From: Candidatus Blackburnbacteria bacterium RIFCSPLOWO2_01_FULL_40_20
GTDB taxonomy: Bacteria; Patescibacteriota; Microgenomatia; UBA8517; UBA10165
Direction of reading: 5' to 3'
DNA length: 64,000 nucleotides
NCBI GenBank assembly: GCA_001816475.1
Contig: MHCC01000027.1
Location: forward strand, 11,312 to 75,311
Shown: positions 1-42,253 of the stretch, one piece after another
How positions within the stretch are numbered: position 1 is the first letter of the stretch
How the letters are laid out: each line of letters begins with the position of its first letter
The notes under the pieces: generated by a model
What the model was told of the DNA's origin: nothing
The model's database searches: none
Seen by the model: only the letters and a program-made list of their open reading frames with translations
Translations under genes and position numbers: made by a program

Positions 1-115
1 AATTAAAACAAAATGAAAAATATGAAAATTACAGAAGGAGATATGAAGAAATTATTAAAAACTCTTCTTTTTGGCAAAATTATGTTGAGCAATTTCAGTT
101 GGCAAACATTAAATA

Positions 116-4063: not shown

Positions 4064-5788
4064 TTGCTTTTTGCAATGCGCGTAAATACAATAAGTACCT
4101 GCACGGGGTTTGTAATAATGGAAAAAATATTATTTGTTATACCACCATATGTCAGTTTTGACAGTTTTGTAAATCCTGCCTTCAACGACGGAACAACAAC
4201 AAAAAAATCTGGAAAATACAGAAATATTGTTGCCGATTTTCCTATGGGAGTGTTATCTTTAAGCGCTTATTTAAAGAAAAACGCAAACGTAGAAGTAAAA
4301 CTTATCGACTTTAATATTGTTCTAAACAAGCTTGAAAGTTTCGAATATAAATCTTTTTCTGAACTATTCAACGACATCCTTTCGTCAAAAAAATATGTCG
4401 AGTTTGTACCAACCATAATCGGAATATCAACATTATTTACTCCGGCATACTACAACATGTTAGACATTGCAAAAGTTTGCAAAAAGTTATTCTCAAACTC
4501 TTTAATAGTAGCTGGTGGTGGCGTACCTACAAACATGTATAGGGAAATATTTAAGGTTAGCAAAAGTTTTGATGCGCTATGTTTTGGCGAAGGAGAAAAA
4601 CCCATGTTAGACCTAATACAGACAAAGAACAAGTATCTGCATATTAATAATAATCCTTCTTGGATTACTTACAAGAAGATTCGCACCAAAAAATCGTTTC
4701 GACATAATTTTATCATTGATCTTGACGAGATACCATTTTTTGACCTAGATATTATCAAAATAGACGACTATCGATTGACCTCTGTTTTATCAACATTCCC
4801 GCTGGCGAAAGAAAGGATGAAAGGTATGTCTTTTATGACTTCAAGGGGCTGTGTGCATCGTTGTTGCTTCTGTGCATCTCACTCAGTCCATGGGAGACAA
4901 ATGCGATTCCATAGTATTGTCCGAATAGAAAACGATTTAAGAAAATTGAAACGGGACTACGGAATCAAGCTCGTTGTTTTTTTTGACGATCATTTTATGG
5001 CAAACAGAGAGAGGGTTTTTAAGATTGTCAATATTATGAAAAATTTACAGTTGACCGCTTTTTTCCCTGCCTCGCTAACACTTTATGCATTAGATAGAAA
5101 AATGTTAGAAGCTTTAAAAAGCATTGGTCTAAACGAACTCGTTTTGTCAGTAGAATCAGGAAGCGATAAAGTTTTAAGAGAAGTTATGCACAAACCTCTC
5201 AACCTATCTATAGTAAAGCGTGTTATCAAAGATTGCCAAGAATTAGGTATAGATACTGACGTGGCTATTTTAATTGGTCTTCCTGGCGAGACGAAAAAAG
5301 ATATCGAAGACACACGATCGTTCTTAAAAACACTCAATGCAACATGGTTTAGAATTAACATCGCTACACCTCTTGCTGGAAGTGAAATGCTTGAAATATG
5401 CTTAAGAAAAAATTATTTAAAAGGCGATTATATCAGTTGTGATTTTAAAAGACCTGTTATTGGAACCGAAGACTTCACCCCAGAATATATACAAGAAAAA
5501 GCTTATGCGCTAAATCTAGAACTCAATTTCGTAGAAAACAGCGACTTTAAACTTGGAAATTACAAAAAAGCATTAAGGGGATTTGAAAATACAATAAGAG
5601 TAAAAAATGATCATGCATTTGCATATTACTTTGCAGCAAGATGTTGCAAATCGCTGAAGCAAAATAAAAAATATATGGAGTACAAAAACAACTATAAAAA
5701 AATTATAAAAGACTCAGAATTTTGGAGAAACTACTTCAGGCAATTTAACCTGGAACCATTGAGGTATGACCTAACATATCTTAACTAA
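4064..5788 (+). CDS. B12-binding radical SAM protein (class B, methyltransferase-like)
   Basis: N-terminal B12-binding Rossmann region then GCVHRCCFC (CxxxCxxC); likely true start ATG at 4118 (MEKILFVIPP). Confidence 0.8.
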   Translation: MLFAMRVNTISTCTGFVIMEKILFVIPPYVSFDSFVNPAFNDGTTTKKSGKYRNIVADFPMGVLSLSAYLKKNANVEVKLIDFNIVLNKLESFEYKSFSELFNDILSSKKYVEFVPTIIGISTLFTPAYYNMLDIAKVCKKLFSNSLIVAGGGVPTNMYREIFKVSKSFDALCFGEGEKPMLDLIQTKNKYLHINNNPSWITYKKIRTKKSFRHNFIIDLDEIPFFDLDIIKIDDYRLTSVLSTFPLAKERMKGMSFMTSRGCVHRCCFCASHSVHGRQMRFHSIVRIENDLRKLKRDYGIKLVVFFDDHFMANRERVFKIVNIMKNLQLTAFFPASLTLYALDRKMLEALKSIGLNELVLSVESGSDKVLREVMHKPLNLSIVKRVIKDCQELGIDTDVAILIGLPGETKKDIEDTRSFLKTLNATWFRINIATPLAGSEMLEICLRKNYLKGDYISCDFKRPVIGTEDFTPEYIQEKAYALNLELNFVENSDFKLGNYKKALRGFENTIRVKNDHAFAYYFAARCCKSLKQNKKYMEYKNNYKKIIKDSEFWRNYFRQFNLEPLRYDLTYLN

Positions 5789-5789
5789 A

Positions 5790-6719
5790 ATGAAATTAAT
5801 CAGCATAGTGACTCCTTGCTATAACGAAGAAGGCAATATTAAAGAAGTTTATTGTCAGGTAAAAGAAGTTTTTAGTAAATTGAAAGCTTATAAATATGAA
5901 CACATTTTTATCGACAATGTATCAAAAGACAAAACATTATCAATTTTAAAAAATATTGCAAATAAAGACAGAAACGTAAAAATAATTGTAAATGCAAAAA
6001 ATTTCGGTGTCTTACGTTCTGGAAATCACGCACTTCTTCAAGCACAAGGCGACGCAGTAATAACAATGGTCGCTGACTTGCAAGATCCGCCTTGGATGAT
6101 TGAGAATTTTATCAAAAAATGGGAAGATGGATACAAAATTGTCGTTGGTATTAAAAAAAAGAGTGAAGAGAATGTGCTAATGTTCCAAGCAAGAAAGCTG
6201 TATTATAGTTTTGTAAGCCGGATTGCCGAAACCGAACACATAAAAAACTTCACAGGATTCGGACTTTATGATAAATCCTTCATAAATATCTTAAGAGGAC
6301 TGAATGATCCATATCCTTACTTCAGAGGGCTTGTTTCAGAATTGGGCTATGAAAGATTTGAGATCAAATACGAACAACCCGTAAGAAAAAGAGGAAAGAC
6401 AAATAATAACATTTATGTCTTATTCGACACCGCAATGCTTGGACTAACTAATCATTCAAAAGTTCCTCTCCGGCTTGCCACGATGACCGGATTCTTCGTA
6501 GCATCACTGTGTCTTCTGACAGCTCTTGGGTATTTTATCTACAAACTCGCATTTTGGAATAGTTTTTCCGTCGGTATGGCGCCACTCGTAATTGGATTAT
6601 TTTTCTTTGCTTCAATTCAACTGTTTTTCCTGGGGATAATAGGGGAATATATCGGGTCAATTCATACGCGAATACTCAATAGACCGCTGGTTATTGAAAA
6701 AGAACGCATAAATTTCTAA
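5790..6719 (+). CDS. GT2 polyprenyl-phosphate sugar transferase (GtrB/ArnC/DPM1-like)
   Basis: LISIVTPCYNEEGNI N-terminus, D..D region, two C-terminal TM helices typical of GtrB family; 309 aa. Confidence 0.8.
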   Translation: MKLISIVTPCYNEEGNIKEVYCQVKEVFSKLKAYKYEHIFIDNVSKDKTLSILKNIANKDRNVKIIVNAKNFGVLRSGNHALLQAQGDAVITMVADLQDPPWMIENFIKKWEDGYKIVVGIKKKSEENVLMFQARKLYYSFVSRIAETEHIKNFTGFGLYDKSFINILRGLNDPYPYFRGLVSELGYERFEIKYEQPVRKRGKTNNNIYVLFDTAMLGLTNHSKVPLRLATMTGFFVASLCLLTALGYFIYKLAFWNSFSVGMAPLVIGLFFFASIQLFFLGIIGEYIGSIHTRILNRPLVIEKERINF

Positions 6720-17860: not shown

Positions 17861-18142
17861 ATGGCTAAAATCAACCCAGATGACAGTCTTCCAGCAGCCT
17901 TTGCTAAGCAGCTTTTGCAACTTGCAACAGCCGGGTTTGGATTGGTTGCAGCACTTGCTTGGAATGACGCAATTAAGAATGCTATCGAAGAATACATAAA
18001 GCCGCGCGTTGCCAACGGAACTGGCATCATCTCTCAACTAATTTACGCTCTAATTATTACTGCCCTGGCAGTATTAATTACTTATCAACTAACAAAAATC
18101 ACAAGAAGGTTTGAGAGGAAGAAGAAAAATAATAAGAATTAA
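17861..18142 (+). CDS. small membrane protein (2 TM)
   Basis: 93 aa, two TM helices, basic C-terminus KITRRFERKKKNNKN whose coding sequence is repeated at 19836-19872. Confidence 0.4.
   Translation: MAKINPDDSLPAAFAKQLLQLATAGFGLVAALAWNDAIKNAIEEYIKPRVANGTGIISQLIYALIITALAVLITYQLTKITRRFERKKKNNKN
18095..18131 (+). repeat. direct repeat copy 1 (37 bp, 2 mismatches to copy at 19836-19872)
   Basis: aaaaatcacaagaaggtttgagaggaagaagaaaaa vs aaaaataacaagaagatttgagaggaagaagaaaaa. Confidence 0.8.
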
Positions 18143-18341
18143 TCTCATTGGCAACCTCAAATTAATACTTGCGCCATAACTATCAATTAAGATATAACAT
18201 TAATGTTGCAACTTTTGTGCAGCAACTTGTTTTGTTTCTTGGCTTATATCAACTAGCGACAGTCTCCAAGAAAATCACAACAATTGAAAAGGTAGTAGTC
18301 GAAGTAAAGTGTGCTGGCTAGCAAAGGACAAGGAGGGCATT

Positions 18342-18446
18342 GTGGGAATAGACGCAAGACCAGGGTCTAACGGCAGTCGTCAGGGACCAGGCAGCGGTGG
18401 AGGTCATCCGGGAAATCCCGGCAAACCAGCAGGCGGCGGAAAGTAG
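18342..18446 (+). CDS. candidate sORF, 34-aa Gly/Pro-rich peptide MGIDARPGSNGSRQGPGSGGGHPGNPGKPAGGGK
   Basis: GTG start 6 nt after AAGGAGG, followed by strong intrinsic terminator; lies in GC-rich island; below the 60-aa cutoff of the ORF track. Confidence 0.3.
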   Translation: MGIDARPGSNGSRQGPGSGGGHPGNPGKPAGGGK

Positions 18447-18483
18447 CAAGCTCAGCACGCAGCAACGACTACTTCTTTTATTG

Positions 18484-18535
18484 GCAGGTGATCTAACTCA
18501 AATTAGACAAGGTCACCTGCTTTTCATTTCTCTTC
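18484..18535. terminator. intrinsic terminator hairpin (bidirectional position)
   Basis: GCAGGTGATC-17nt loop-GGTCACCTGC then TTTTCATTTCTCTTC; sits between the convergent sORF and M16 peptidase gene. Confidence 0.55.
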
Positions 18536-19846
18536 AAGTGATTTTCCCAATTTTTCTGCATCAGTAGGCCCAATCGCAGCAATGTAGAAATTATTCTTTT
18601 GAAAATACTTTGAAGCAACTTCAAATACTTCTTGCGACGATATTTTCTTATACATATTTTCTTGTTCATTCGGAGAAATTGACTTGCCTCGCATTGATTC
18701 TTGAAATCCATACCACCGGGCAAAATCTGTTACCGTTTCCATGTTCGAAATCAAACTGCCTGTAATGTGTCCTTTAGCTAACTTCATGTCACTATCGCTT
18801 AACTTTTTATTTGATAACTTTTCAAATTCCTCCTTTACCAACGATGTAATTTTGTATTGGTTTTCTTTTGATGCTGACGCACTAAAAAAAAGATATCCTG
18901 TCTCGTCCAAGTTGTCCTGCCACATATTCCAATTGTATATTAGTCCACCTTCGTCTCTTAATCTTTGTGGCAAACGCGCTCCAAAATATCCACCCAAACA
19001 ATCTGTAATAAAATCCAGAACGTGCCTGTCTTGGTGGGCATACGGTATTGTTTTTACACCAAACATTATAGCCGTTTGATCTGAATCGATAAAATTGACT
19101 TTTACCCTCTCGCCTGAGTTTGATACCTCATTTTGACTATGAAGAAAAGATTTTCTGTTATAGATTGTCGAATATTCATCAAACAATTTCACTGAACTCT
19201 CAAGGTCAACATCCCCCGCTACAATAAAGACTGTTGAGTCGGCCAAAAAATGATCACTAATGAAATTCCCAACATCGCGAGTCGATATATTTTTAACATC
19301 TTTTTCAACACCAGTACAAGGATGAGACAAGCATGTTCCTTTAAAAAACAGAGGGTTCCATGCAAAATCCCATATCGCTGTTTCAGGATTTTCCCGACGC
19401 TTCAAGATTTCTTCTTTTACAACACCCTTCTCCTGTTCCAAACCTTCGTTGTTTATAATTGGATTTACGAGTGTTTCAAAAAGTATTTCAATTCCTTTTT
19501 TAAGTTGTAGTTTTGGTAAATGAATCATGTGCCTTTGGTATTCAATCCAAGTAAAGGCATCGTGCCACCCTCCATGTTGATTTATGGATTGTGAAAGTAA
19601 TGCTGAAGAAGGGTAGTTTTTTGTTCCGTTAAAAAGCATGTGCTCCGTAAAGTGAGCAAGTCCTGGCCGATTTGATGGATCATGCCGAAACCCGGCCTTT
19701 ATGTAGGCTGAAATTGTAACAGGAAATGCACCAGGAATTTTTATAACACCCAAAGTTGATCCATTGTTTAGTCTGGTCTTTTGATAAAAAGTTTGCTTGC
19801 GCATGATGTAATTATATGACAAAAGGCTTGGCAATAAAAATAACAA
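18524..19846 (-). CDS. M16 family zinc metallopeptidase (insulinase/pitrilysin-like)
   Basis: Inverted zincin motif HFTEH (GLAHFTEHMLFNG); more likely start at ATG 19804 (MRKQTFYQ), track start is TTG. Confidence 0.8.
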   Translation of the reverse strand: MLFLLPSLLSYNYIMRKQTFYQKTRLNNGSTLGVIKIPGAFPVTISAYIKAGFRHDPSNRPGLAHFTEHMLFNGTKNYPSSALLSQSINQHGGWHDAFTWIEYQRHMIHLPKLQLKKGIEILFETLVNPIINNEGLEQEKGVVKEEILKRRENPETAIWDFAWNPLFFKGTCLSHPCTGVEKDVKNISTRDVGNFISDHFLADSTVFIVAGDVDLESSVKLFDEYSTIYNRKSFLHSQNEVSNSGERVKVNFIDSDQTAIMFGVKTIPYAHQDRHVLDFITDCLGGYFGARLPQRLRDEGGLIYNWNMWQDNLDETGYLFFSASASKENQYKITSLVKEEFEKLSNKKLSDSDMKLAKGHITGSLISNMETVTDFARWYGFQESMRGKSISPNEQENMYKKISSQEVFEVASKYFQKNNFYIAAIGPTDAEKLGKSLEEK

Positions 19847-19872
19847 GAAGATTTGAGAGGAAGAAGAAAAAG
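19836..19872 (+). repeat. direct repeat copy 2 (orphan copy of 3' end of small membrane protein gene)
   Basis: See 18095-18131; would encode KITRRFERKKKK*. Confidence 0.8.
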
Positions 19873-19879
19873 TAAACTA

Positions 19880-20320
19880 TTAAATTTGCACTTTTTCCTG
19901 AACAAGTTTGTGCGTTTCTTTTTTAAAATACTCCTTTACATCGTCCCAATTTACCTCGATTAGCATATTGGGCATTTGACTTTCTTTTTCAGCATCATCA
20001 AAATAATCCAGAGAGCGCATAGTCGAATAAAGGTGATCTTCTAAAACAGAGTACTTTTTTTGATAAAACATTAACATTTCCTCAAGCGTGTATTTTTGAG
20101 AAAGAAAATAAACATCTACAAAATCTCTCTTCGTCCCACGTTGTTCAATTGCGTGAATTTTCATAGCAGCAATGTCAGCAAAGCTCGCCAATTGAATGCC
20201 CTCGAACAGGATGATCGGTTCAATTAGTGGAAACTTATAATGGAATATTGAAAACTTTGTTTGATTTATTTTTCCCCACACAGTCCACTTGGCAGTTCCT
20301 TCTTGAGTAAATTCAGGCAT
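19880..20320 (-). CDS. nucleotidyltransferase AbiEii/AbiGii-toxin-like protein, probably N-terminally truncated
   Basis: MKIHAIEQRGTKRDFVDVYFL resembles K..A...R...RD.YD.y.l motif of AbiEii family; only 146 aa. Confidence 0.4.
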   Translation of the reverse strand: MPEFTQEGTAKWTVWGKINQTKFSIFHYKFPLIEPIILFEGIQLASFADIAAMKIHAIEQRGTKRDFVDVYFLSQKYTLEEMLMFYQKKYSVLEDHLYSTMRSLDYFDDAEKESQMPNMLIEVNWDDVKEYFKKETHKLVQEKVQI

Positions 20321-20466
20321 GGAAGTAAGTTTTGCGGAAAGCTCAACTTAGTTAAACTCACGCTGAGTAAAAAAGTCAAGGTCAATAGAAATCCTGTGTC
20401 TAATCTGTATGGCTAAGGCTGTTCCTCCGGCAAGATATCCCTCTTTAATTTCAGTAATGTTTGAAA

Positions 20467-20781
20467 CTAACTGGATAGCCCGAAGTGTATCGGGGAGTAA
20501 GGTTTTTGTAAACATGGCACCTGTTTTTTATCCAAGCCAAGTATGTCGGCCCAAAAATTCCCTGTTAGCCTATCAAGATCGCGCGTACCTAAAACTACTT
20601 TTTTTATTACTTCGATCCCGTATGTTTTTATCAGCCAACGTATATCGCTAAAATTGCCCCTATCTAAAATCCGTTTTGTAATAAAAAAAATGTCCTTTTG
20701 AACCTCTAATTTTTCAAATTCTATGTCCCAAAAATATGGCCTAAAATTTTCGGGAACTCTCGTTTCTCCGCCTTGTTTCAT
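20467..20781 (-). CDS. hypothetical small protein (possible partner or N-terminal remnant of nucleotidyltransferase gene)
   Basis: 104 aa ORF immediately upstream of AbiEii-like fragment. Confidence 0.25.
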   Translation of the reverse strand: MKQGGETRVPENFRPYFWDIEFEKLEVQKDIFFITKRILDRGNFSDIRWLIKTYGIEVIKKVVLGTRDLDRLTGNFWADILGLDKKQVPCLQKPYSPIHFGLSS

Positions 20782-21580: not shown

Positions 21581-21918
21581 GTAAAAGTCAAGATCAATTA
21601 GCAAACTTGATCATATAAGTCATATTGGAAATTGACCTTAGAAATGATCCCCGAAATGCAGGAAAAGTTCTACAAAAAATACTGGACGAGTACAATAAAT
21701 TGAAATAAATTTCAACTGATTTCAACTGATTCTTGACTGATTTAGACGTTTGAATTAGAATACAAACTATAGACAGGAGGTGTTTAACTTGAAATTGGTA
21801 ATTAAAAGAAAAAAATCTCGTATTGTGATATTCTGTTCCCCTGAAGATAGATAATATTTAAATGCACTAACCGTACCGCCTCTGGTTCCACGTCGTTGGA
21901 GTAAGTGTAGTATGTATT

Positions 21919-23007
21919 ATGGGTAGTAAACAAAAATTTAAATTAAATCTAAATTGGATAGTTAAAGAAGAAAAAGACCAAATTAGCCTCAATTCACCCT
22001 ATGGAGAGAAGAAAAAATATACACCTTCAAAACATCTGTTAGAATTTTTAATAATCAAAAGTTGTATCAATCAGCCAAAAAGTTTAAAACTAATAACTCA
22101 AGATATACAAAACGTGCTCAACGTGTCGCAAAAGGAAGTGGAAAACAAGATAAGTGAATTATTAAAAGCTAAAATATTCAGCTATAATACAACATCTGGG
22201 AATACTTTCTCCACAAATGAATTAGACAGGTATAAATGGCAACTGGAATTTTTTACTTCATTTGAATCGTTAAAAAACTCTAAATATGACATACAAAATA
22301 ATTTAAAAAACAGTCACATCGCCATCATCGGCATAGGAGGCCAAGGAAGTATCATCGCTCAAATACTCGTAGCTATGGGGATAGGAAAACTAACAATAGT
22401 AGATGGTGATACCATTGAAAGAAGTAATTTGACTAGACAACTGGCATATAATGATAGCGATATTGGTAAATACAAAGTAGAAGTGCTCAAATCAAGGCTG
22501 AAACTACAAAATCCATATACCAAAATAACTCCAATGAGGCAATATGTAACCTCAAAAAAAGATTTTATGGATATTATAAATGGTAAAGATTTTGTAATTT
22601 TGTGTGCAGATAAACCTCTCGTTAAGTTAGGGAGGTGGTTAAACAAAGTAGCCCTATCTGAAAGAATACCTTATTTAGGGGTTAGTGGAAATTGGATAGG
22701 CCCTATCTGTATACCCTTTAAAACACCCTGTTTTGAATGCGTATTGTCCCACCAAATAAATAAGGACAAAGATTTTGAAAAATATCTAAAGACATTGGAA
22801 AAACTCAAAGAAATTCCTAGGCCATCTTTTGGAGTTAGACCGATTTTATCAGGAACGTTAATGGCTTTACAAGTAATTAAATATCTCACAAAGGTTATGG
22901 ACGTTGAGATTTTAGAAGGTAGATTTAGAGTCAACATAGATTTAACTACAGAGTTTGAAAAGATAAAACTAGATAACAATTGTAAGGCATGCGGAAATAC
23001 AAAATGA
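21919..23007 (+). CDS. E1-like (ThiF/MoeB/HesA) enzyme with N-terminal RRE/winged-helix-like extension (TOMM C-protein-like)
   Basis: IAIIGIGGQGSIIAQILVAMGIGKLTIVDGDTIERSNLTRQ ThiF nucleotide-binding signature starting ~aa 135; ~130-aa N-terminal extension; 19-nt overlap with YcaO gene. Confidence 0.8.
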   Translation: MGSKQKFKLNLNWIVKEEKDQISLNSPYGEKKKYTPSKHLLEFLIIKSCINQPKSLKLITQDIQNVLNVSQKEVENKISELLKAKIFSYNTTSGNTFSTNELDRYKWQLEFFTSFESLKNSKYDIQNNLKNSHIAIIGIGGQGSIIAQILVAMGIGKLTIVDGDTIERSNLTRQLAYNDSDIGKYKVEVLKSRLKLQNPYTKITPMRQYVTSKKDFMDIINGKDFVILCADKPLVKLGRWLNKVALSERIPYLGVSGNWIGPICIPFKTPCFECVLSHQINKDKDFEKYLKTLEKLKEIPRPSFGVRPILSGTLMALQVIKYLTKVMDVEILEGRFRVNIDLTTEFEKIKLDNNCKACGNTK

Positions 23008-24227
23008 AATTCTCTGCTTATCCACTAGATTATCCCCTAGGAGTTCCCAAGCTCCCTGGTTATGTGGTTAAGGCTCCTCGAATATCACAATCATCATCTG
23101 ATGCAAAAAAAATAAGCAACATTGTAGGCGCGAGTGTAGGTCTTGAAAATAATAATGCACTACAAAGAGCCTATGGCGAAGCAATTGAAAGATATTGTTT
23201 GTATCAATACAATGAAACTAATTTTCAACAACATCATACAAACAAGACAGACGTTACAAAAATATTTAGTAAATTTATTCTCTATGACGATAATCAATAT
23301 TGTGATAAAAATTTTCCCTACAGGAAACCGTGCGACACCAAGAAGTTTTTTGTTGTTCTAGGAGAAAGTTTGCTTAATGGCTCACAAAAATATTTACCTG
23401 TAGATCTGGTTTATCCCCGGCATAAGAAAGATCATCAGAGGATTGATTCAATGAATCCCAGTGGGTCTGCTTCTGGCAACACCAACCAACTAGCTATTCT
23501 AAATGGTTTGTGTGAAGTTATTGAAAGAGATTCTTTGATGTGTGCTTGGTTAACTTCTTCACATTTTTATCAGCTGCCATTGCGATTTGTCAAAGATGCA
23601 AGCGTCAATAAATTATTAAATATAATTAAAAACTCTAAACTTAATTTAGTCATCTATTTAGTGGTTAATGATATGAACATGGTTACTGTTGTTGCAGTAT
23701 TGACTTCTAAAACCGCACCTTATATGTCTTTTGGATCGGCAATGACTCTTGAGATTATCCAATCAATAAAAAAAGCGATTGAGGAGTCAATTATGATTAG
23801 AAGGTCGCAACTAATCCTGTATGAACAAGACAATAACAAGCGCCAAAACAGAAAGGAAATATTAGAGTTAAGTGATCATATTATGGTTCCTACTAATAAA
23901 ACTAACGTAGCAGAAATAAAGAGAACAATGGGTAATAAATTATTAAGCTTTAATCAATATAGAAAAATTTTGTCTAAGGCGCCAGTGAGTTTATACGATC
24001 TATTAATGCGATTAGATCAAAAATATTTTGAACCTTGGTGTGTTGATATTGCCCCTAAAGAAATTAAGGAAAGTGGGTTTTCTGTTTGTAAAATTTTAAT
24101 ACCCGGACTACATCCTTTAGAAATAAATCAGAACTATTTACATAATGATCCTAGAAGATTACAATCTTTTATAAATACGAGCGTTGCCGTGACAAGAGTA
24201 AATAAGTTTCCACATCCGTTTGGATAA
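22989..24227 (+). CDS. YcaO-domain protein (ATP-dependent peptide backbone-modifying enzyme)
   Basis: GASVGLENNNALQRAYGEAIERY and NPSGSASGNTNQLAILNGLCEVIERDSLMCAW YcaO ATP-binding motifs; C-terminus KFPHPFG (Pro-rich YcaO tail). Confidence 0.85.
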   Translation: MRKYKMKFSAYPLDYPLGVPKLPGYVVKAPRISQSSSDAKKISNIVGASVGLENNNALQRAYGEAIERYCLYQYNETNFQQHHTNKTDVTKIFSKFILYDDNQYCDKNFPYRKPCDTKKFFVVLGESLLNGSQKYLPVDLVYPRHKKDHQRIDSMNPSGSASGNTNQLAILNGLCEVIERDSLMCAWLTSSHFYQLPLRFVKDASVNKLLNIIKNSKLNLVIYLVVNDMNMVTVVAVLTSKTAPYMSFGSAMTLEIIQSIKKAIEESIMIRRSQLILYEQDNNKRQNRKEILELSDHIMVPTNKTNVAEIKRTMGNKLLSFNQYRKILSKAPVSLYDLLMRLDQKYFEPWCVDIAPKEIKESGFSVCKILIPGLHPLEINQNYLHNDPRRLQSFINTSVAVTRVNKFPHPFG

Positions 24228-25590: not shown

Positions 25591-25665
25591 GTTAAGGTTT
25601 GGCCACCAACTGATCCTTGCACTTTGATTTTTAGTGGTATAATTATTCACAAAGCATTTAGCTTC
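25591..25665. repeat. intergenic repeat element copy A (~75 bp)
   Basis: Shares gttaaggttt..agtggtataattattcacaaagcattt with copy C (31874-31943) and ccaccaactgat(c/t)cttgcact with copy B (27837-27927). Confidence 0.7.
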
Positions 25666-25715: not shown

Positions 25716-27350
25716 TTAGTTCACTTTAATATTGTTGGTCTGCAGAAAATATTCCAACTCTAGTACATTCAGAAGAAAACTCATTGCGTCGCCTTCGAAA
25801 TATTCCTCAACTTTACCTTTTTTAATATCGTGCACAATTTCCTCTGCCTTTATCCAACCTTTTTCTCCCAATCTAGAATTTTTTAATATGGAAAGCACAA
25901 CCTTTGGTCTTTCTGTTAAATAGCGCCCCACATGTTCCTCTGCACCCTGTTTTTGCCTAAATTGTTCTGTAATGAATATATCTGTTCTCATGCGAAAAAT
26001 TTCTTGTTTTGACGGAGTCGAACCTAAGCTGCGTGGCATGCCCATCGCCACACCAATTAAACCAGGATCAATAAAAGGTGTTATTGGCCAAACCCCTGTT
26101 TCCCAATTAATTAAAAAAGAATCATGCCCAACACCGATAGCAGAAGGCGAAAAAAGAGAGTCTTGTATGTTTTTCTCTTGGAACCTTGTTTTATCGAGAA
26201 ATATCTCTAATCCCTTATTACTTAATATTTTACCGATACCATATTTGAGTTTCCATATGGAATAAAAATATTCTTGTTGCAAAGAATAACGAAGATTTAT
26301 ATCAACTGCATTCTTGTTTGACCATAACACTTCATCACCGCCAACTCCCTGAAAATAAACATTGTTACCGTCACTTTTTAATACTAATAAATACTCGTAC
26401 AATTCAGACTTGTTTGTTTGATTTGGATCTAACTTCAGCCATTTGTTATAACTAAGAGTTGAAAATGGGAAGATATTTTCAATAGAAACGAGTTTTGATA
26501 CCAAGTCATGTTTCTTCACAAATTGATTAACCACGACAGGGTCAGTGTCTTCCAACATTGTGCTGGCTACACGTGAGTAACAATTAAATTGTCTATTCGT
26601 ACTATTTTTGAGCAAATAACAAACAAGGCTGCTATCAAATCCTGATGTTAAATCCGCGGCAAACTTGATATCTTTTAAAACAACCAATCTTTCCCTTACC
26701 CTTTCACAAAGTGAAGCAATAAAAGCATTTGTAAAATCACTTAAAGAACTGTGTTGAACAGTTTGAATATTTCTCTCGTACCAATTAATATCAACAGTAT
26801 TATTAAGCCGATATGAATCGCCATATCTATATTCAAACAAAACTGCTGGCGGAATTTGTCCAATCTCTTTTATTACAGTCCTGTCAGTAATAAATATGTT
26901 ACGCGAGATGTAATCTAGCGCGCTATTGTTGTCCATGCTTGGAGATTCAATTTCCTTCAAAACATTATGAAAGCTGGTTGATAAAACAATAGAATCACCA
27001 GCCATTGAAAAGAAACAGGGAAATTTCCCTGTTTGGTCAGTTAAGACTAATAATCGTTGTTGATCAAAATCACAAAAAAGTATAAGGAAATCCCCAACCA
27101 GACTTCCCAATTCGTTCCACTTCTCCGATTTGCAAAGTCTCAATAATTGCCTCGCGCTGATTTTCTTGCCATAGTCAATAAAATAACCTGCGCATAAACA
27201 ACCGTCGGCTTCCTCGCGAAAATCCGGAGGAAACTTATTCGCAGGAAGTTTGAGATTTTTCCTTATGGAATTTTTAAAAGTCAGCTTGTCAGAAAAACCC
27301 GACTTGCTTAGTTTCAAGAAAAAATGTTCTCTAAGTTTCATATTCTGCAA
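25716..27350 (-). CDS. asparagine synthetase-like adenylating enzyme lacking glutaminase nucleophile (lasso-cyclase-like), paralog 1
   Basis: 544 aa, PP-loop-like LTSGFDSSLV, no N-terminal Cys2; ~50% identical paralog at 36631-38247; start overlaps PqqD-like gene by 20 nt. Confidence 0.7.
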   Translation of the reverse strand: MQNMKLREHFFLKLSKSGFSDKLTFKNSIRKNLKLPANKFPPDFREEADGCLCAGYFIDYGKKISARQLLRLCKSEKWNELGSLVGDFLILFCDFDQQRLLVLTDQTGKFPCFFSMAGDSIVLSTSFHNVLKEIESPSMDNNSALDYISRNIFITDRTVIKEIGQIPPAVLFEYRYGDSYRLNNTVDINWYERNIQTVQHSSLSDFTNAFIASLCERVRERLVVLKDIKFAADLTSGFDSSLVCYLLKNSTNRQFNCYSRVASTMLEDTDPVVVNQFVKKHDLVSKLVSIENIFPFSTLSYNKWLKLDPNQTNKSELYEYLLVLKSDGNNVYFQGVGGDEVLWSNKNAVDINLRYSLQQEYFYSIWKLKYGIGKILSNKGLEIFLDKTRFQEKNIQDSLFSPSAIGVGHDSFLINWETGVWPITPFIDPGLIGVAMGMPRSLGSTPSKQEIFRMRTDIFITEQFRQKQGAEEHVGRYLTERPKVVLSILKNSRLGEKGWIKAEEIVHDIKKGKVEEYFEGDAMSFLLNVLELEYFLQTNNIKVN

Positions 27351-30802: not shown

Positions 30803-31866
30803 TCGTAAGTTCTAAATCGAATCGCAACCCCCTTAGGTAGAATATCTAGTAAGGGGGTGAGAAAGCATAAAACACAAGAAGATTACTGATATTGAACGCG
30901 ATTCAATAGCCCTTTGGCATTCTCAAGGTGATTCAAACAGTGAGATTGCAAAGAGGCTGGGAAAGCATATCTCAAATATAGGACGGGAGATAAAGAGAAA
31001 CTCTTTTGAGGGTAGATATTACGTGGCAATTCATGCCCAGGCAAAAAGTAGTACCAGAAAATCACAAGCTGGTAAAAGACACCCTTTGAAAAATAAGGAA
31101 GTTTTCAGGTGGGTCATTACCAGGTTAATGCGTGGCTGGAGTCCTGAACAGATATCAGGCAGGATGAAGCTGGTTTTTCCTCGCAACCTAAGGATAAGAA
31201 TTACTCCCGAGACCATTTACTCATTCATCTATTCAGAGGAATATAAACACAGAAAGTTCTGGGAATACCTGCCTTGGGGAAGAAAGAAAAGGAGACACAA
31301 AGCCGGCAGGCATGTCCACAGAGGTAGAATCCCAGATAGAATCAGCATTCACAATAGACCGGTTCTGATAGATCAGAGAGTGGAGTTTGGTCACTTTGAG
31401 GGTGATACGGTTGAAGGGAAGGGGCATAAAGATGGGGTACATACCGAGGTTGAAAGAGTTTCCAGAAAGTTCTTTGCCAAACTTGTTGCCAGGATTAGCT
31501 CAGAAGAAGCAATTAAAGCTCAAAGTGAGATCTTCTCCCCTCTCCCTGCCCTTGCCCGTAAGTCAACAACCTTGGACAATGGGAGAGAAAACCATCTGCA
31601 CATACAGCTTAAAGAGCTGGGAATGGATACCTTCTTTTGTGACCCATATTCCTCTTGGCAAAGAGGATCAAATGAGTACCACAACGGACTATTAAGAAGG
31701 TACTTTCCCAAGGGAACTGATTTTAAAACCATATCCCAGCAGGAGATTGATGAGTGTGTGGAAGAGATAAACAATAGGCCTAGAAAATGTCTTGGATTTT
31801 ACACCCCTAATGAGGTATTCTTAAGAGAGCTACAAAAGGGAGGGGTTGCGATTCAACCTTGAATGT
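30803..31866 (+). mobile_element. IS30-family insertion sequence, copy 1 (1064 bp), start of transposase frameshifted
   Basis: Ends conserved with copy 2 (tcgtaagttctaaatcgaatcgcaacccc ... ggggttgcgattcaa..ttgaatgt), inverted core gaatcgcaacccc. Confidence 0.7.
31023..31862 (+). CDS. IS30-family transposase (N-terminal HTH region out of frame)
   Basis: ~70% identical to transposase at 60934-61938; the HTH-encoding N-terminal part (from 30861) is in frame with this body, but the upstream GTG start is shifted +1 by a single extra base, so the track ORF begins at a downstream GTG. Confidence 0.75.
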   Translation: MAIHAQAKSSTRKSQAGKRHPLKNKEVFRWVITRLMRGWSPEQISGRMKLVFPRNLRIRITPETIYSFIYSEEYKHRKFWEYLPWGRKKRRHKAGRHVHRGRIPDRISIHNRPVLIDQRVEFGHFEGDTVEGKGHKDGVHTEVERVSRKFFAKLVARISSEEAIKAQSEIFSPLPALARKSTTLDNGRENHLHIQLKELGMDTFFCDPYSSWQRGSNEYHNGLLRRYFPKGTDFKTISQQEIDECVEEINNRPRKCLGFYTPNEVFLRELQKGGVAIQP

Positions 31867-31873
31867 AAGTCTT

Positions 31874-31943
31874 GTTAAGGTTTTTACTCAAGTGGTATAA
31901 TTATTCACAAAGCATTTTGCTTCGCAAAACTTGACAAATAACT
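31874..31943. repeat. intergenic repeat element copy C with TTGACA box, upstream of 31984 gene
   Basis: gttaaggttt..agtggtataattattcacaaagcattttgcttcgcaaaacttgacaaataact. Confidence 0.7.
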
Positions 31944-31983: not shown

Positions 31984-33735
31984 ATGTCAAGAAAAGAGTA
32001 CCTGCCATACGGCAGAATATTCAATAGGCTTGCTCAAGGAAGCGAGGCTCGCAACGCTCAAAGGGACCATTTGAGCCTAGAGCCTCAACAAAAGGTGCCT
32101 GAACCGGCGCCCGGTGAGATGTCCCCCGAAACCGCCCCCGCCTTTACCCCCTCTGCCCCAACCACCACTCTTGAGTCACCCGCCCCTTTCACCCTTACTA
32201 CCCTTACCCAAGAAATCACAACAACCACAGCTTCCGAAAAACCGGCTCAGGCGCAAATAATAGAAAACATCGCCGCTCCAGAAACAAAAACTCCAGGAGT
32301 ATTAGGATTTTATAAGAAGCTTAAAACCCCAATTCACATTGCTGCTGTAGTAATTACTATGACAGCCGGACAACTATTAGGTCGCAGCCCAAGCGAAGGC
32401 AAAGCAAAGGAAGGAATAAAACCAGGACAAGGCATAACAGAAATCCAAGACGCCGGCATGCCCTCAAAACAAGCTATTGAAGGAACAAGAAAAGAGCTGG
32501 CAATAAACCCTGAGATTAAAACATATACGGACTACAAAGTAATTGATTTGAAAAGCAACGGCAATGAGCTGGTGACGATTTCAGAGGTTGGGGGAAAAAG
32601 GTATGTGAGCACTAACTCTAAAGATAGTATAGGTAACGATATTATAAAGAGTGTTGGAACCCCACCTTTTTATGCACTTTCAGCCGCAAGATCTGGAAAT
32701 AATATTGTTGTTGTGGGAGACAAAGAAGCCCGATCCAACCAAGGCAGAGCATGGTTCACAACTGACGCGGGCAAGAACTGGAGATTAATTGAAAGTAGTG
32801 TTGGAACAATGTGGGCAGTGCAGCTTACCCCGGACAATAAATATGCCTATATTTCAGCTTCAAGCGTGAATCTTGAAAATGGAGTGCTTGTTTCGCGTTT
32901 AGACCTTGCAAATTCAACAGTAACAAACTTTACGGTATCGGGTACTCCTTCGGGAGAATCTATACGCATTCTGACCCCATTAGTGGCGGTAGAGGGTTCA
33001 TATAAAAGTTATGCTGCCATACCTCTCAACACGGGGTATTACGAGATCACCCATTTAGCAGATAGAATAGATGCTGTCAGGTTTAATATTGATGAAGGTT
33101 ACGCCAGAGGAGAAATTACTAATTTTACAAACAGCCAAGGAGAGCAAGAAGTTTGGCTGATTAATAACGATGTTGGAGGTTATCCTCCAAATAATTCAAG
33201 CCGGAGAACTGGAACCATTTATCGCAACATCGATAACGTTTTAAGTAGCGTTATACAACCAAAAACTTCCTTCCATCCAGAAGCTGGAACAAATAGCGGC
33301 ATAGTAGTATCGACAGCTGCAGCTGAAGTTCACCTAGATCTGGGCTTTATGGCTGTTGGAGCCGAAATCGGCGATGGCGGGTTAAGTACTAAAATCGAAA
33401 CATTCCCGATATCTGATCCTGTTAACTTAGAAAAAAGAGAACTAGTCCCTCAAGACGGAGATTGGCCTCAGATTTTATCAAACAAAGAACGAGTGGAGGT
33501 CAGATCCTTGAAAGTTTTGAGCGTAGAAGGGAAAAAGGTTTTAGTTGCGAACATTCAAAAATGGGAATATGTTTACGACTCTTCCACAAACACTGAAAAG
33601 CTTGTTTTCCAAACGGGGGGGCTACTAGAAAGGGATATTACCCAGGGAGTTTCATCAGAAAAACAATGGAGGAAAGCTTCTTCAATTGAAGAAATAATAA
33701 AACATCAAGTCTATATACCAAATGTGGTTAGGTAA
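31984..33735 (+). CDS. membrane-anchored protein with Pro/Thr-rich linker and BNR/Asp-box beta-propeller-like domain
   Basis: PT-rich region aa 35-85, TM helix IHIAAVVITMTAG, Asp-box-like TTDAGKNW. Confidence 0.45.
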   Translation: MSRKEYLPYGRIFNRLAQGSEARNAQRDHLSLEPQQKVPEPAPGEMSPETAPAFTPSAPTTTLESPAPFTLTTLTQEITTTTASEKPAQAQIIENIAAPETKTPGVLGFYKKLKTPIHIAAVVITMTAGQLLGRSPSEGKAKEGIKPGQGITEIQDAGMPSKQAIEGTRKELAINPEIKTYTDYKVIDLKSNGNELVTISEVGGKRYVSTNSKDSIGNDIIKSVGTPPFYALSAARSGNNIVVVGDKEARSNQGRAWFTTDAGKNWRLIESSVGTMWAVQLTPDNKYAYISASSVNLENGVLVSRLDLANSTVTNFTVSGTPSGESIRILTPLVAVEGSYKSYAAIPLNTGYYEITHLADRIDAVRFNIDEGYARGEITNFTNSQGEQEVWLINNDVGGYPPNNSSRRTGTIYRNIDNVLSSVIQPKTSFHPEAGTNSGIVVSTAAAEVHLDLGFMAVGAEIGDGGLSTKIETFPISDPVNLEKRELVPQDGDWPQILSNKERVEVRSLKVLSVEGKKVLVANIQKWEYVYDSSTNTEKLVFQTGGLLERDITQGVSSEKQWRKASSIEEIIKHQVYIPNVVR

Positions 33736-41356: not shown

Positions 41357-42253
41357 TTACTTTTGGCAATTGGGGCAATAATATGTTCCGCGCCCTCCCA
41401 AACGAATTTTTAGAATTATTCCCCCACAATTATTTGGACAAGGTTTGCCTTCGCGGCCGTAAACCAGAAAATGCTCTTGATAGCCACCCCCTTGTCCCAA
41501 GACATTTACAAAGTTCATTTCTGTTGCCCCACCATATTTTAGCCCTTGTTTTAATACTTCAATGATTGATTCATATAACTTAGACTGTTCTCTTAGACTT
41601 AGACTGTTTGCTTTTCTTGTTGGGTCTATCCCCGATAAAAACAACGCGTCATTTGCATAAATATTTCCAACCCCGCCGATTTTTTTCTGATCCATTAATA
41701 AAACTTTGATTTTTTGCAGAGTTCCACTAACAATCCCCCTAAAAACATCAAGGGTCAAGAAGGCTTGCCCTGAGCGAGTGTTAGCGAGTCGAATGGGTTC
41801 AGGTCCTAACTCGTGGATAAAAGGAAAATCTACGACACTTTCGGTAGGCAAAATCCTAATCCAACTAAACTGCCTTATATCGTTGTAATATAAATTTCCT
41901 CCTTTATCTAAATTGAGGATAAGATGCGTGTGTTTGCCTGGCAATGGCCCAGTAAGTTCACTTGATAATATGGATTCTTTTGGCCTATTGGGACCCAAGT
42001 AAATGAACTGTCCTGTTAATTTTATATGAGCAACTAAAGAAAAATTATTGTCTAAATCCAAACTCAACACCTTGCCAAAACGCCTTGCCCCAATTATTTT
42101 TCCACCAGTCAATTTTTCCGTATCGCCTTCTTTAACAATCTTTGGAAGCCGTACATCAACACCAACCACTTCGTGACCTACAATGTACTTCTCCATTCCC
42201 ATTCTTATGGTTTCAACTTCAGGAAGTTCTGGCATCTTGCAATACTGAAGCAC
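41357..42253 (-). CDS. mutM: formamidopyrimidine-DNA glycosylase
   Basis: N-terminal MPELPEVE catalytic Pro2/Glu3, C-terminal zinc finger CPNCQK. Confidence 0.85.
   Translation of the reverse strand: MLQYCKMPELPEVETIRMGMEKYIVGHEVVGVDVRLPKIVKEGDTEKLTGGKIIGARRFGKVLSLDLDNNFSLVAHIKLTGQFIYLGPNRPKESILSSELTGPLPGKHTHLILNLDKGGNLYYNDIRQFSWIRILPTESVVDFPFIHELGPEPIRLANTRSGQAFLTLDVFRGIVSGTLQKIKVLLMDQKKIGGVGNIYANDALFLSGIDPTRKANSLSLREQSKLYESIIEVLKQGLKYGGATEMNFVNVLGQGGGYQEHFLVYGREGKPCPNNCGGIILKIRLGGRGTYYCPNCQK

What the first reader, a model, noticed from the sequence alone, without database searches (positions are those of the whole stretch)
18095..19872. M16 peptidase plus Gly-rich sORF bracketed by 37-bp direct repeats
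The last 37 nt of the small membrane protein gene (18095-18131) recur with 2 mismatches at 19836-19872, right upstream of the M16 peptidase start. The enclosed 1.7 kb holds a GC-rich island with a 34-aa Gly/Pro-rich sORF (strong SD, strong terminator) and the HFTEH peptidase. This suggests insertion or duplication of a peptidase/peptide module into the 3' end of a resident gene.
Basis: seen in the sequence. Interest (0 to 1): 0.6.

Follow-up and report, generated by a model that had tools for sequence, protein, structure and literature searches.

The report
Displaced gene end marks DNA insertion
The 39-base repeat is real: it is the old end of a small membrane-protein gene, pushed 1.7 kb downstream when a piece of DNA carrying a leftover peptide-antibiotic peptidase gene was inserted, and it is an ordinary kind of recombination scar, though similar scars recur in related uncultured bacteria.

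Summary
The repeat is confirmed: 18091-18129 matches 19833-19871 at 36 of 39 bases, and at 38 of 39 in a second population haplotype. It is far beyond chance and is reproduced in at least 12 independent assemblies of one groundwater Blackburnbacteria (Microgenomates, CPR) population.

Copy 2 reads in frame as the DUF5654 C-terminus (KITRRFERKKKK, then a stop), so it is a displaced gene end. About a dozen fetched Microgenomates loci show ligase, Fic and DUF5654 followed by a convergent Carb_kinase, and several continue to RecF and Fpg. None has an M16 gene there. The window lacks Carb_kinase and instead has 22 kb at this point, with the 1.74-kb bracketed segment at its left edge.

The M16 gene belongs to the peptidase of the known CPR linear-azole peptide (LAP) cassette (precursor, YcaO, nitroreductase, M16). 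Here it is an orphan without those partners.

The Gly-rich sORF has no homolog among 1.84 billion proteins and no profile match to the cassette's precursors. Its "strong SD" occurs at chance frequency. It lies in a GC-rich island closed by an inverted repeat, and what that island is remains unresolved.

Similar gene-end duplications bracket inserts at SpoU, purN and ligase genes in relatives. The likeliest mechanism is gene-end displacement by homology-anchored recombination.

The parts
17861..18142 (+). Resident DUF5654 small membrane-protein gene (93 aa). Its present C-terminal tail is ...KITRRFERKKK-NNKN, then a stop.
   Evidence: Pfam PF18898, E = 6.6e-20. The ligase-Fic-DUF5654 synteny is conserved in relatives.
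18091..18129 (+). Repeat copy 1: codons 78-90 of DUF5654 (L-TKITRRFERKKK), part of the functional gene.
   Evidence: family D2. Reading frame checked.
18130..18293 (+). Left end of the inserted segment. It supplies the new last codons and stop of DUF5654 (to 18142), followed by an AT-rich spacer with a small terminator-like hairpin at 18204-18224. A 1-nt indel polymorphism lies at 18187.
   Evidence: Sequence, terminator scan, population indel.
18294..18473 (.). GC-rich island (up to 62% GC) closed by an imperfect inverted repeat (arms about 18294-18322 and 18447-18473). Its nature is unresolved: an orphan sORF, a structured RNA, or a decayed relic.
   Evidence: Composition. RNA folding z = -4.1 (+ strand) and -5.5 (- strand). 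No Rfam family at gathering score, and only chance-level matches (E above 1) in the permissive scan. No other copy in the window or in 170 loci.
18342..18446 (+). 34-aa Gly/Pro-rich sORF (GTG start; a 45-aa version starts at 18309). It is an orphan and coding is not established.
   Evidence: ORF. phmmer against 1.84e9 representative proteins finds only itself. Precursor profile score -2.2 bits. No DNA-profile hit. The SD motif occurs at chance frequency.
18483..18530 (+). 12-bp hairpin followed by CTTTTCATTT. It looks like an intrinsic terminator for + strand transcripts and abuts the M16 stop codon (18524-18526).
   Evidence: Fold; sequence.
18524..19804 (-). M16 (pitrilysin-type) peptidase gene, 426 aa, with the HFTEH zinc motif and the conserved glutamates intact. 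It is an orphan member of the peptidase family of the CPR LAP cassette.
   Evidence: Pfam PF00675 and PF05193. 40-51% identity to peptidases that lie next to YcaO, nitroreductase and a Cys-rich precursor. Invariant H51, E54, H55, E125 and E132 in alignment A1.
19805..19832 (-). Right end of the inserted segment, directly upstream of M16. On the minus strand it carries TATAAT (19816-19811), 6 nt before the ATG, which may indicate a leaderless transcript.
   Evidence: Read. This is an inference; the promoter scan did not list a full sigma-70 site here.
19833..19875 (+). Repeat copy 2 (19833-19871) plus AAG TAA. This is the displaced original 3' end of DUF5654 and reads in frame as IKITRRFERKKKK, then a stop. 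Sites 19842 and 19851 are polymorphic in the population, and the alternative alleles equal the copy 1 bases.
   Evidence: tblastn KITRRFERKKK 11/11. SNPs.
19880..20781 (-). First genes to the right of the scar: a split (pseudogenised) AbiEii toxin gene (19880-20320 and 20348-20515) and a DUF6922 antitoxin-like gene (20467-20781).
   Evidence: Pfam. Gene calls differ between population contigs.

Best explanation
The 39-nt direct repeat is a recombination scar. A 1.74-kb segment (18130-19832) was joined to the 3' end of the resident DUF5654 gene. The segment holds an AT-rich spacer, a GC-rich island closed by an inverted repeat (containing the Gly-rich sORF), a hairpin terminator, and an M16 peptidase gene on the opposite strand.

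The gene now ends in a new tail (NNKN, stop). Its former end (KITRRFERKKKK, stop) was pushed downstream and survives as a non-functional in-frame relic just upstream of M16.

The most likely mechanism is gene-end displacement. Incoming DNA, or a circular intermediate, pairs with the resident gene through a short homologous anchor. The other junction is illegitimate, so the anchor ends up on both sides of the insert. No recombinase needs to be encoded in the insert.

The M16 gene is debris from a CPR linear-azole-peptide (LAP) cassette (precursor, YcaO, nitroreductase, M16) that has lost its YcaO, dehydrogenase and recognisable precursor.

Shown: the repeat, its coding origin, the insert-free state in relatives, the cassette affinity of M16, and the orphan status of the sORF.
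Inferred: the recombination mechanism, that copy 2 is the older end, and that the two copies still exchange sequence.

My confidence that this is an insertion or displacement scar is about 0.85. My confidence that the mechanism is homology-anchored rather than site-specific or transpositional is about 0.45.
For: (1) The repeat is real and non-random.

(2) Copy 2 translates in the DUF5654 frame as KITRRFERKKKK with its own stop. The closest ortholog (L021; Fic 87.5% and DUF5654 78% identical) ends ...EKKKKK, then a stop.

(3) L021, L022 and about ten of the Fic-anchored loci have DUF5654 followed directly by a convergent Carb_kinase, in several cases then by RecF and Fpg. None has M16 there. 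In the window RecF and Fpg are at 40283-42253 and Carb_kinase is absent.

(4) The window M16 is 40-51% identical to peptidases found with YcaO, nitroreductase and DAKEF-leader/Cys-rich precursors, in two gene orders. This cluster type is described for CPR in PMC7298704.

(5) No transposase, integrase or terminal inverted repeats of an element lie inside 18130-19832.

(6) Parallel cases in relatives.
- SpoU: the cassette M16-precursor-YcaO-nitroreductase is bracketed by 77-95-nt repeats of the SpoU 3' end in L013, L016 and L019. L013 has two inserts in tandem separated by SpoU copies.
- purN: an orphan M16 segment in L183 is bracketed by a 36-nt repeat of the purN 5' end.
- Ligase: a 1-kb insert without M16 in L129 is bracketed by the duplicated ligase 5' end.

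(7) The SpoU copies differ almost only at synonymous sites (17:1, 12:1, 9:3 codons). That is expected if both copies once served as functional gene ends in a donor and a recipient.

(8) Two of the eight single-base variants in 2 kb of the population alignment (which also has one 1-nt indel) fall in copy 2. They are linked, and their alternative alleles are the copy 1 bases. This suggests gene conversion between the copies.

(9) The mechanism has precedent: rhs C-terminal displacement, which leaves direct repeats of core fragments (PMC2935791), and homology-facilitated illegitimate recombination, proposed for T6SS effector displacement (PMC5361080).
Against: - No exact empty site was found. That would be DUF5654 ending KKKK-stop and followed by the AbiEii fragment. 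The predicted excision-product proteins are absent from the 15-billion-protein collection.
- The nearest insert-free relatives have a different downstream gene (Carb_kinase). More than one event therefore separates them from the window, and the order of events is inferred.
- A 39-nt anchor is short for RecA-dependent pairing.
- The SpoU relics begin at the same codon (within 2) in three lineages. That fits a fixed attachment site better than random illegitimate joints.
- With only three differences between the copies, the donor-versus-recipient signature cannot be tested in the window itself.
Confidence: 0.7

Rival explanations
1. Site-specific integration of a non-autonomous cassette. The 39-mer would be attL/attR. 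The element would carry a surrogate 3' end for its target gene, and an integrase encoded elsewhere would catalyse insertion. This resembles phages and islands that integrate into the 3' ends of protein genes.
For: - Direct repeats made of the target gene's terminal coding sequence, with the gene kept intact.
- Tandem accretion at SpoU in L013.
- The SpoU relics begin at the same codon in three lineages and differ mainly at synonymous sites.
- Toxin-antitoxin genes lie next to the scar.
Against: - No integrase gene was found in the insert, among the Pfam-scanned ORFs of the 22-kb block (not every ORF was scanned), or next to the SpoU, purN or ligase inserts.
- Four different target genes are involved, at both 5' and 3' ends, with repeat lengths from 36 to more than 200 nt. 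That is not what one site-specific enzyme would produce.
Confidence: 0.2
2. Target-site duplication from insertion into a long staggered break (transposition-like or repair-mediated). Both copies would then derive in situ from the same gene.
For: The copies are nearly identical in the window (36-38 of 39). The purN relic in L183 differs from the functional copy only by non-synonymous or stop changes, as expected for in-situ decay.
Against: - The insert has no transposase and no terminal inverted repeats.
- Duplications of 36 to over 200 nt are far longer than the target duplications I know of for bacterial transposons (own knowledge). The IS30-like genes in the window are 11 kb away or more.
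- The synonymous-only divergence of the SpoU copies does not fit in-situ duplication followed by neutral decay.
Confidence: 0.1
3. The repeat is a functional sequence rather than a scar. It could be a shared regulatory site. Alternatively, if M16 transcription starts upstream of copy 2, the M16 leader would be a 39-nt antisense match to the DUF5654 mRNA 3' end.
For: Copy 2 lies immediately upstream of M16. Both polymorphic sites in copy 2 toggle between bases that are synonymous in the relic frame and identical to copy 1.
Against: The sequence is simply the coding end of DUF5654, including an in-frame stop. The motif is absent from the corresponding position in relatives and from the rest of the window. 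The TATAAT box lies downstream of copy 2, so copy 2 need not be transcribed with M16.
Confidence: 0.04
4. A diversity-generating retroelement pair, with a variable repeat at the gene's 3' end and a template repeat downstream.
For: The geometry fits: one repeat at the 3' end of a gene and a second copy downstream. Two of the three mismatches have A in copy 2.
Against: - No reverse transcriptase was found in or next to the bracketed segment, nor among the Pfam-scanned ORFs of the surrounding block.
- The third mismatch is T/C.
- The population varies in copy 2, not in the gene copy, which is the opposite of a DGR.
- The SpoU repeats show no A-specific pattern.
Confidence: 0.01

Closest known systems
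C-terminal displacement of rhs (and cdiA/T6SS effector) genes, explained by recombination through a conserved anchor or by homology-facilitated illegitimate recombination (PMC2935791, PMC5361080)
   Same: - A new 3' end plus cargo is joined to a resident gene through a homologous stretch.
- The old 3' end is shifted downstream and survives as a silent fragment that shares a direct repeat with the gene.
- Serial events build arrays, as in L013.
- No recombinase is encoded in the insert.
   Different: - The targets here are a small membrane-protein gene and housekeeping genes (SpoU, purN, ligase), not polymorphic toxins.
- The cargo is not a toxin tip with an immunity gene but RiPP-cassette genes or debris.
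- The repeat in the window is only 39 nt.
- 5' ends are displaced as well as 3' ends (L183, L129).
Integration of phage 21 or the e14 element into the 3' end of E. coli icd, with an element-borne surrogate gene end (own knowledge, not checked here)
   Same: The target gene stays intact because the insert supplies a replacement end. The displaced original end remains as a pseudo-fragment. The two copies differ mostly at synonymous sites, as the SpoU copies do.
   Different: Those elements encode their own integrase and use one fixed att site. No integrase was found here, and several target genes are used.
CPR linear azole/azoline peptide (LAP) cluster: precursor, YcaO, nitroreductase-type dehydrogenase, peptidase (Sharrar et al. 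2020, PMC7298704)
   Same: The window M16 is 40-51% identical to the peptidase of this cluster in Microgenomates. The cluster architecture was recovered here in eight or more loci.
   Different: The window copy has no adjacent YcaO or nitroreductase of that type. The ThiF-YcaO pair at 21919-24227 is only 26% identical to the cassette YcaO. No recognisable precursor is present. The window M16 is an orphan, like those in L025 and L183.

Membership tests
Peptidase M16 (pitrilysin/insulinase) | Active-site domain with HxxEH zinc motif and downstream glutamates, followed by the inactive M16_C domain | tested here: met
   PF00675 (E = 3.7e-23) and PF05193 (E = 5.9e-24). H51, E54, H55, E125 and E132 are invariant in a 23-sequence alignment that includes the window protein.
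CPR LAP (YcaO/nitroreductase/peptidase) cassette | Peptidase orthologous to the cassette's peptidase | tested here: met
   40-51% identity over 95% or more of the length to peptidases next to YcaO and nitroreductase.
CPR LAP (YcaO/nitroreductase/peptidase) cassette | Adjacent cassette-type YcaO cyclodehydratase and nitroreductase-family dehydrogenase | tested here: not met
   tblastn of the cassette YcaO and nitroreductase finds nothing within 18-20 kb. The only YcaO (22989-24227) is 26% identical and is paired with ThiF. The only nitroreductase-like sequence is the fused fragment at 39603-39926.
CPR LAP (YcaO/nitroreductase/peptidase) cassette | Precursor peptide with DAKEF(S/V) leader motif and Cys/Gly/Pro-rich core, co-directional with the enzymes | tested here: not met
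   A profile of 25 precursors gives -2.2 bits on the sORF and no hit in any frame of 18143-18523. The DNA profile finds nothing. The sORF has no Cys and is convergent with M16. Only compositional resemblance exists (PGSGGGHPG versus PGSCGGGPG, E = 0.45).
Gene-end (C-terminal) displacement scar | The direct repeat consists of the terminal coding sequence of the adjoining gene, and the displaced copy keeps the frame and its own stop | tested here: met
   Copy 2 reads IKITRRFERKKKK, then a stop, in the DUF5654 frame.
Gene-end (C-terminal) displacement scar | Relatives show the uninterrupted gene without the insert | tested here: met
   L021, L022 and about ten Fic-anchored loci have DUF5654 followed directly by convergent Carb_kinase. 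The exact empty site (DUF5654 next to AbiEii) was not found.
Gene-end (C-terminal) displacement scar | The attached and displaced ends differ as two functional alleles would (synonymous bias), indicating a donor and a recipient | tested here: inconclusive
   The window has only 3 differences (2 synonymous, 1 not). The bias is clear in the SpoU parallels (17:1, 12:1, 9:3).
Site-specific integrative element | Tyrosine or serine recombinase in or next to the element | tested here: not met
   No such domain appears in Pfam scans of 40 ORFs between about 11 and 42 kb. Not every ORF of the 22-kb block was scanned. An enzyme encoded elsewhere cannot be excluded.
Transposon/IS insertion | Terminal inverted repeats, a transposase, and a short fixed-length target duplication | tested here: not met
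   No inverted repeats at 18130/19832 and no transposase inside. The duplication is 39 nt. IS30-like genes lie at 31023-31862 and 60934-61938 only.
Diversity-generating retroelement | Reverse transcriptase, with TR/VR differing at template adenines and variation in the gene copy | tested here: not met
   No reverse transcriptase among the scanned ORFs. One mismatch is T/C. The population varies in the non-genic copy.
Known structured RNA families (Rfam 15) for the GC island | Covariance-model match | tested here: not met
   No family at gathering score, and only chance-level matches (E above 1) in the permissive scan of 18130-18560.

The most novel reading that the evidence does not exclude
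Microgenomates (CPR) genomes may routinely gain DNA by gene-end displacement. Inserts would be joined to the first or last 30-200 nt of a conserved gene. That stretch ends up duplicated, the gene stays intact, and the old end is left as a relic.

LAP/M16 cassettes and their debris would be frequent passengers. Examples seen here are DUF5654 in the window, SpoU in three lineages including a tandem array, purN, and ligase.

The synonymous-only divergence and shared start point of the SpoU relics would mean that these sites are used repeatedly, or that the relics keep exchanging with functional alleles. Either would amount to a cassette-exchange system without a dedicated recombinase in organisms thought to depend on DNA uptake.
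Probability: 0.3. Interest if true: 0.6.

Novelty: new member of a known kind. Interest (0 to 1): 0.4.

Why it matters
For this window, the result turns an odd repeat into a dated event. It marks the newest insertion at the edge of a 22-kb island of RiPP-like and toxin-antitoxin genes in a streamlined CPR genome. It also shows that the M16 gene is an orphan of the CPR LAP cassette, not part of a working peptide/peptidase pair.

More broadly, the same signature was found at four different genes in related genomes. This hints at how CPR bacteria, in which I am aware of few classical mobile elements (own knowledge), shuffle accessory cassettes while keeping essential genes intact. Such scars could be used to locate and date insertions in metagenome-assembled genomes.

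The result itself is ordinary biology: a recombination scar of a known type.

Tried and rejected
- Structured RNA for the GC island: Rfam gave no family at gathering score and only chance-level matches in the permissive scan, and ARAGORN found nothing there. The island does fold unusually well on both strands, but that reflects one inverted repeat and cannot be tested for covariation because no homolog exists.
- sORF as a decayed LAP precursor: an early tblastn gave two weak collinear hits, and MAFFT aligned IDARPGS with SDAKEFS. Protein-profile and DNA-profile searches gave nothing, and the family search did not return the ORF. I treat this as unsupported, not disproved.
- sORF as substrate of the neighbouring ThiF-YcaO pair: there is no homolog anywhere, so this cannot be tested by co-occurrence.
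- A third, older copy of the DUF5654 tail deeper in the island: none found.
- Excised or empty-site alleles in the population: exact look-up of the two predicted 90-aa products found nothing.
- Closer relatives with an intermediate arrangement: the metagenome scan with the Fic protein returned only relatives at 53% identity or less. The protein database has no M16 between 51% and 99% identity.
- Direct repeats around the cassettes in L023, L024, L026, L184 and L185: none convincing, so the signature is not universal.
- A relic of the nitroreductase C-terminus upstream of the window M16: the candidate (AKPFVI, stop) is too short to judge.
- DGR and assembly-artefact readings: rejected (see rival explanations).
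Full report
**Observation.**
The claimed repeat exists. The repeat finder reports 18091-18129 against 19833-19871: 39 nt, 36/39 identical, spacing 1742. The repeat also stops 13 nt before the end of the gene, so it is not the gene's very last 37 nt.

In the whole window only four same-strand pairs reach 36/39. The other three lie in two paralogous transposase-like genes. None appeared in 20 Markov-simulated windows. blastn-short of the gene tail finds copy 2 at E = 8e-11 and no third copy.

The other features are as described:
- a DUF5654 gene at 17861-18142;
- a GC island reaching 62% GC in a 38% GC window;
- a 34-aa Gly/Pro-rich ORF at 18342-18446;
- a 12-bp hairpin with a T-run at 18483-18530;
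- an M16 peptidase gene at 18524-19804 on the minus strand, with HFTEH.

**Source and assembly.**
The window comes from a groundwater Candidatus Blackburnbacteria (Microgenomates, CPR) population (GCA_001816375.1 and many Rifle metagenomes). Twelve contigs from different samples and assemblers carry the same arrangement at 99.7% identity or more. The assembly-artefact explanation is therefore excluded.

Across 2,040 aligned bases the population shows nine variable sites: eight single-base variants and one 1-nt indel. Two of the single-base variants, 19842 A/C and 19851 A/G, lie in copy 2. They are linked, and their alternative alleles are the copy 1 bases. In that haplotype the copies are 38/39 identical. 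This clustering is best explained by gene conversion between the copies, which is an inference.

**What copy 2 is.**
In the DUF5654 frame copy 2 reads IKITRRFERKKKK followed by TAA. tblastn recovers KITRRFERKKK at 11/11. The functional gene ends KITRRFERKKK-NNKN. The closest ortholog (L021) ends ...EKKKKK, then a stop. Copy 2 therefore looks like the older gene end, and the NNKN tail looks like sequence supplied by the insert.

**Relatives.**
L021 (Fic 87.5% and DUF5654 78% identical) and L022 (ligase 64%, Fic 68%) have Fic, then DUF5654, then a convergent Carb_kinase gene abutting it within 0-9 nt. A metagenome scan with the Fic protein shows the DUF5654-then-Carb_kinase arrangement in about ten of the fetched loci. 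Several of these extend the order to ligase, Fic, DUF5654, Carb_kinase, RecF-like and Fpg. M16 never occurs there.

In the window, Carb_kinase is missing. RecF-like and Fpg sit at 40283-42253. The 22 kb in between is lineage-specific and contains:
- the bracketed segment;
- two toxin-antitoxin pairs;
- a ThiF-YcaO pair followed by cysteinyl-tRNA synthetase;
- two AsnB-like genes;
- an IS30-like transposase;
- large Pfam-less proteins.

The DUF5654 3' end is thus a synteny breakpoint, and the bracketed 1.74 kb is the piece nearest to it.

**What the M16 gene is.**
Its nearest non-identical homologs (49-51% identity) lie in the operon SpoU, M16, a small ORF, YcaO, nitroreductase. More distant homologs (40-43%) lie in the order precursor, YcaO, nitroreductase, M16.

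The small ORFs form one family. They share a DAKEF(S/V) leader motif and a Cys/Gly/Pro-rich core such as CAPGACGGGPGGACQGACRGCREY. This is the linear azole/azoline peptide cluster reported for CPR, including 31 Microgenomates genomes (PMC7298704).

The window protein keeps every invariant catalytic residue. No cassette-type YcaO or nitroreductase is nearby, however. The ThiF-linked YcaO at 22989-24227 is only 26% identical to the cassette YcaO. The window M16 is therefore an orphan, like those in L025 and L183. Its six population SNPs are four non-synonymous and two synonymous, which is too few to judge constraint.

**The sORF and the GC island.**
The sORF lies where the closest cassettes have their precursor gene, but on the opposite strand. 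The tests came out as follows:
- A profile of 25 true precursors gives -2.2 bits on the sORF and nothing in any frame of the intergenic region.
- A DNA profile finds nothing.
- phmmer of the 45-aa version against 1.84 billion representative proteins returns only itself.
- The AAGGAGG motif occurs 10 times in the window against 7.8 +/- 2.7 expected, mostly inside genes.

The island is closed by an imperfect inverted repeat (arms about 18294-18322 and 18447-18473). It folds far better than shuffled controls on both strands (z = -4.1 and -5.5). It matches no Rfam family at gathering score, and the permissive scan gave only chance-level matches. No other copy exists in the sequence held.

I cannot decide between an orphan small gene, a structured RNA and a decayed relic. 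The "peptide partner" reading is unsupported.

**Parallel cases.**
- SpoU. In L013, L016 and L019 the 3.75-kb cassette M16-precursor-YcaO-nitroreductase is bracketed by 77-95-nt direct repeats of the SpoU 3' end (74-92% identity). The displaced fragment encodes ELPMFG(I/V)NKSLNVMVSLGIVLY(E/Q)VIE with its own stop. L013 has a second insert (PfkB, HAD and others) separated from the first by a further SpoU copy.
- purN. In L183 an orphan M16 and a split methyltransferase gene (2,268 nt) are bracketed by a 36-nt repeat of the first 12 purN codons. A relic of the nitroreductase C-terminus precedes that M16.
- Ligase. In L129 a 1-kb insert without M16, lying between Fic and ligase, is bracketed by the duplicated ligase 5' end.
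- No repeat. Cassettes in L023, L024, L026, L184 and L185 (the last between recA and recX) show no such repeat.

The signature is recurrent, not universal, and not specific to M16. A crude scan of 1.75 Mb of fetched loci found roughly one direct repeat of comparable quality per 58 kb. Exact bracketing of several independent inserts is therefore unlikely to be coincidence, although I did not compute a formal probability.

**Mechanism.**
The SpoU copies differ from each other almost only at synonymous sites (17:1, 12:1, 9:3 codons). This argues against in-situ duplication followed by neutral decay. It suggests instead that both ends were once functional alleles, as expected when donor DNA carrying its own version of the gene end recombines with the recipient.

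That is the logic of rhs C-terminal displacement, where core fragments end up as direct repeats (PMC2935791). It is also the logic of homology-facilitated illegitimate recombination, proposed for T6SS effector replacement (PMC5361080). Integration of phage 21 or e14 into icd gives the same picture but uses an integrase (own knowledge).

No recombinase, transposase or element-type terminal inverted repeat lies within 18130-19832 or next to the other inserts. I therefore favour homology-anchored gene-end displacement.

Site-specific integration by an enzyme encoded elsewhere remains a live rival. It is helped by the fact that the SpoU relics start at the same codon in three lineages. A DGR reading fails: there is no reverse transcriptase among the scanned ORFs, one mismatch is T/C, and the variation is in the non-genic copy.

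**Consequences (inferred).**
- DUF5654 acquired a slightly longer tail.
- The relic and a TATAAT box 6 nt upstream of the ATG form the M16 upstream region, which may give a leaderless transcript.
- The two copies could mediate precise loss of the segment, but no such allele was found.

**Verdict.**
The feature is a new example of a known kind of recombination scar, in a lineage where it had not been pointed out. A modest possibility remains that it reflects a general way in which CPR genomes take up cassettes.

Noticed in passing
window 38544-40205 (-): A 553-aa open reading frame is a chimera. It has a NUDIX domain, then the C-terminal half of a cassette-type nitroreductase (39603-39926, 44-48% identical to L013/L023), fused directly to an M16 peptidase lacking its first ~103 residues, including HxxEH (38649-39602, 35% identical to the window M16). 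This is a second, decayed LAP-cassette relic at the right edge of the 22-kb block.
   Followed up: partly
window 21780-24227 (+): A ThiF-like E1 gene (21919-23007) overlaps a YcaO gene (22989-24227) that is only 26% identical to the LAP-cassette YcaO, and cysteinyl-tRNA synthetase follows directly. A tiny ORF (21780-21854...RIVIFCSPEDR) with AGGAGGTG upstream precedes ThiF and could be a precursor.
   Followed up: no
window 31023-31862 and 60934-61938 (+): Two paralogous genes share long near-identical stretches. The translation carries IS30-type transposase motifs by my reading (DNGxE..., SWQRGSNEYHNGLLRRYFPKGTDF), although Pfam gave no hit at E <= 0.001.
   Followed up: partly
window 25633-25665 and 31891-31923 (+): A 33-nt direct repeat (97% identical) contains TGGTATAAT, preceded in both places by GTTAAGGTTT. 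It looks like a duplicated extended -10 promoter in two intergenic regions 6.3 kb apart.
   Followed up: partly
window 19880-20515 (-): The AbiEii toxin gene next to the scar is split into two ORFs (146 and 55 aa). In some population contigs it is split further, so it is a decaying pseudogene beside an intact DUF6922 gene.
   Followed up: no
L013 9677-9763; L016 4619-4695; L019 4172-4266: The displaced SpoU 3' fragments after the nitroreductase gene keep the SpoU motif-3 peptide and their own stop. They differ from the functional ends and from each other almost only at synonymous sites. They start at the same codon (within 2) and lie in the nitroreductase reading frame, after one or two stops. 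This is not explained by neutral decay of a single old scar.
   Followed up: partly
L183 3622-3657 / 5890-5925; L129 4822-4905 / 5871-5950: Two more inserts are bracketed by duplicated gene 5' ends. In L183, purN is duplicated around an orphan M16 plus a split methyltransferase. In L129, ligase is duplicated around a 310-aa ORF on the opposite strand. In L129 the upstream relic keeps the ancestral-like MTFSKLS.YLQKLE start, while the functional gene starts MFFKVLASYLAKLE.
   Followed up: partly
L025 6631-6978; L183 ~4480-4519: Orphan M16 genes in relatives are preceded by relics of the nitroreductase C-terminus (...LYLIAVGKI, fused in L025 to a truncated His_Phos gene; EFALYLLAVGTI in L183). 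Orphans therefore arise repeatedly by breaks inside the nitroreductase 3' end.
   Followed up: no
L185 5723-9269: A complete cassette (103-aa ORF, YcaO, nitroreductase, M16) sits between recA and recX, which are normally an adjacent gene pair (own knowledge). No flanking repeat was detected.
   Followed up: partly
window 31994-32260 and 35106-35298: Two further GC spikes (61-65% GC) lie in the N-terminal regions of two convergent 583-584-aa ORFs without Pfam domains. One N-terminus is Pro/Thr/Ala-rich and the other Cys/Gly/Ser-rich with a signal-like start.
   Followed up: no
window 25716-27350 (-) and 36631-38247 (-): Two AsnB-like (Asn_synthase) genes of about 540 aa lie in the same block, one next to a MarR-like gene. 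They could be RiPP or lasso-type amidotransferases.
   Followed up: no
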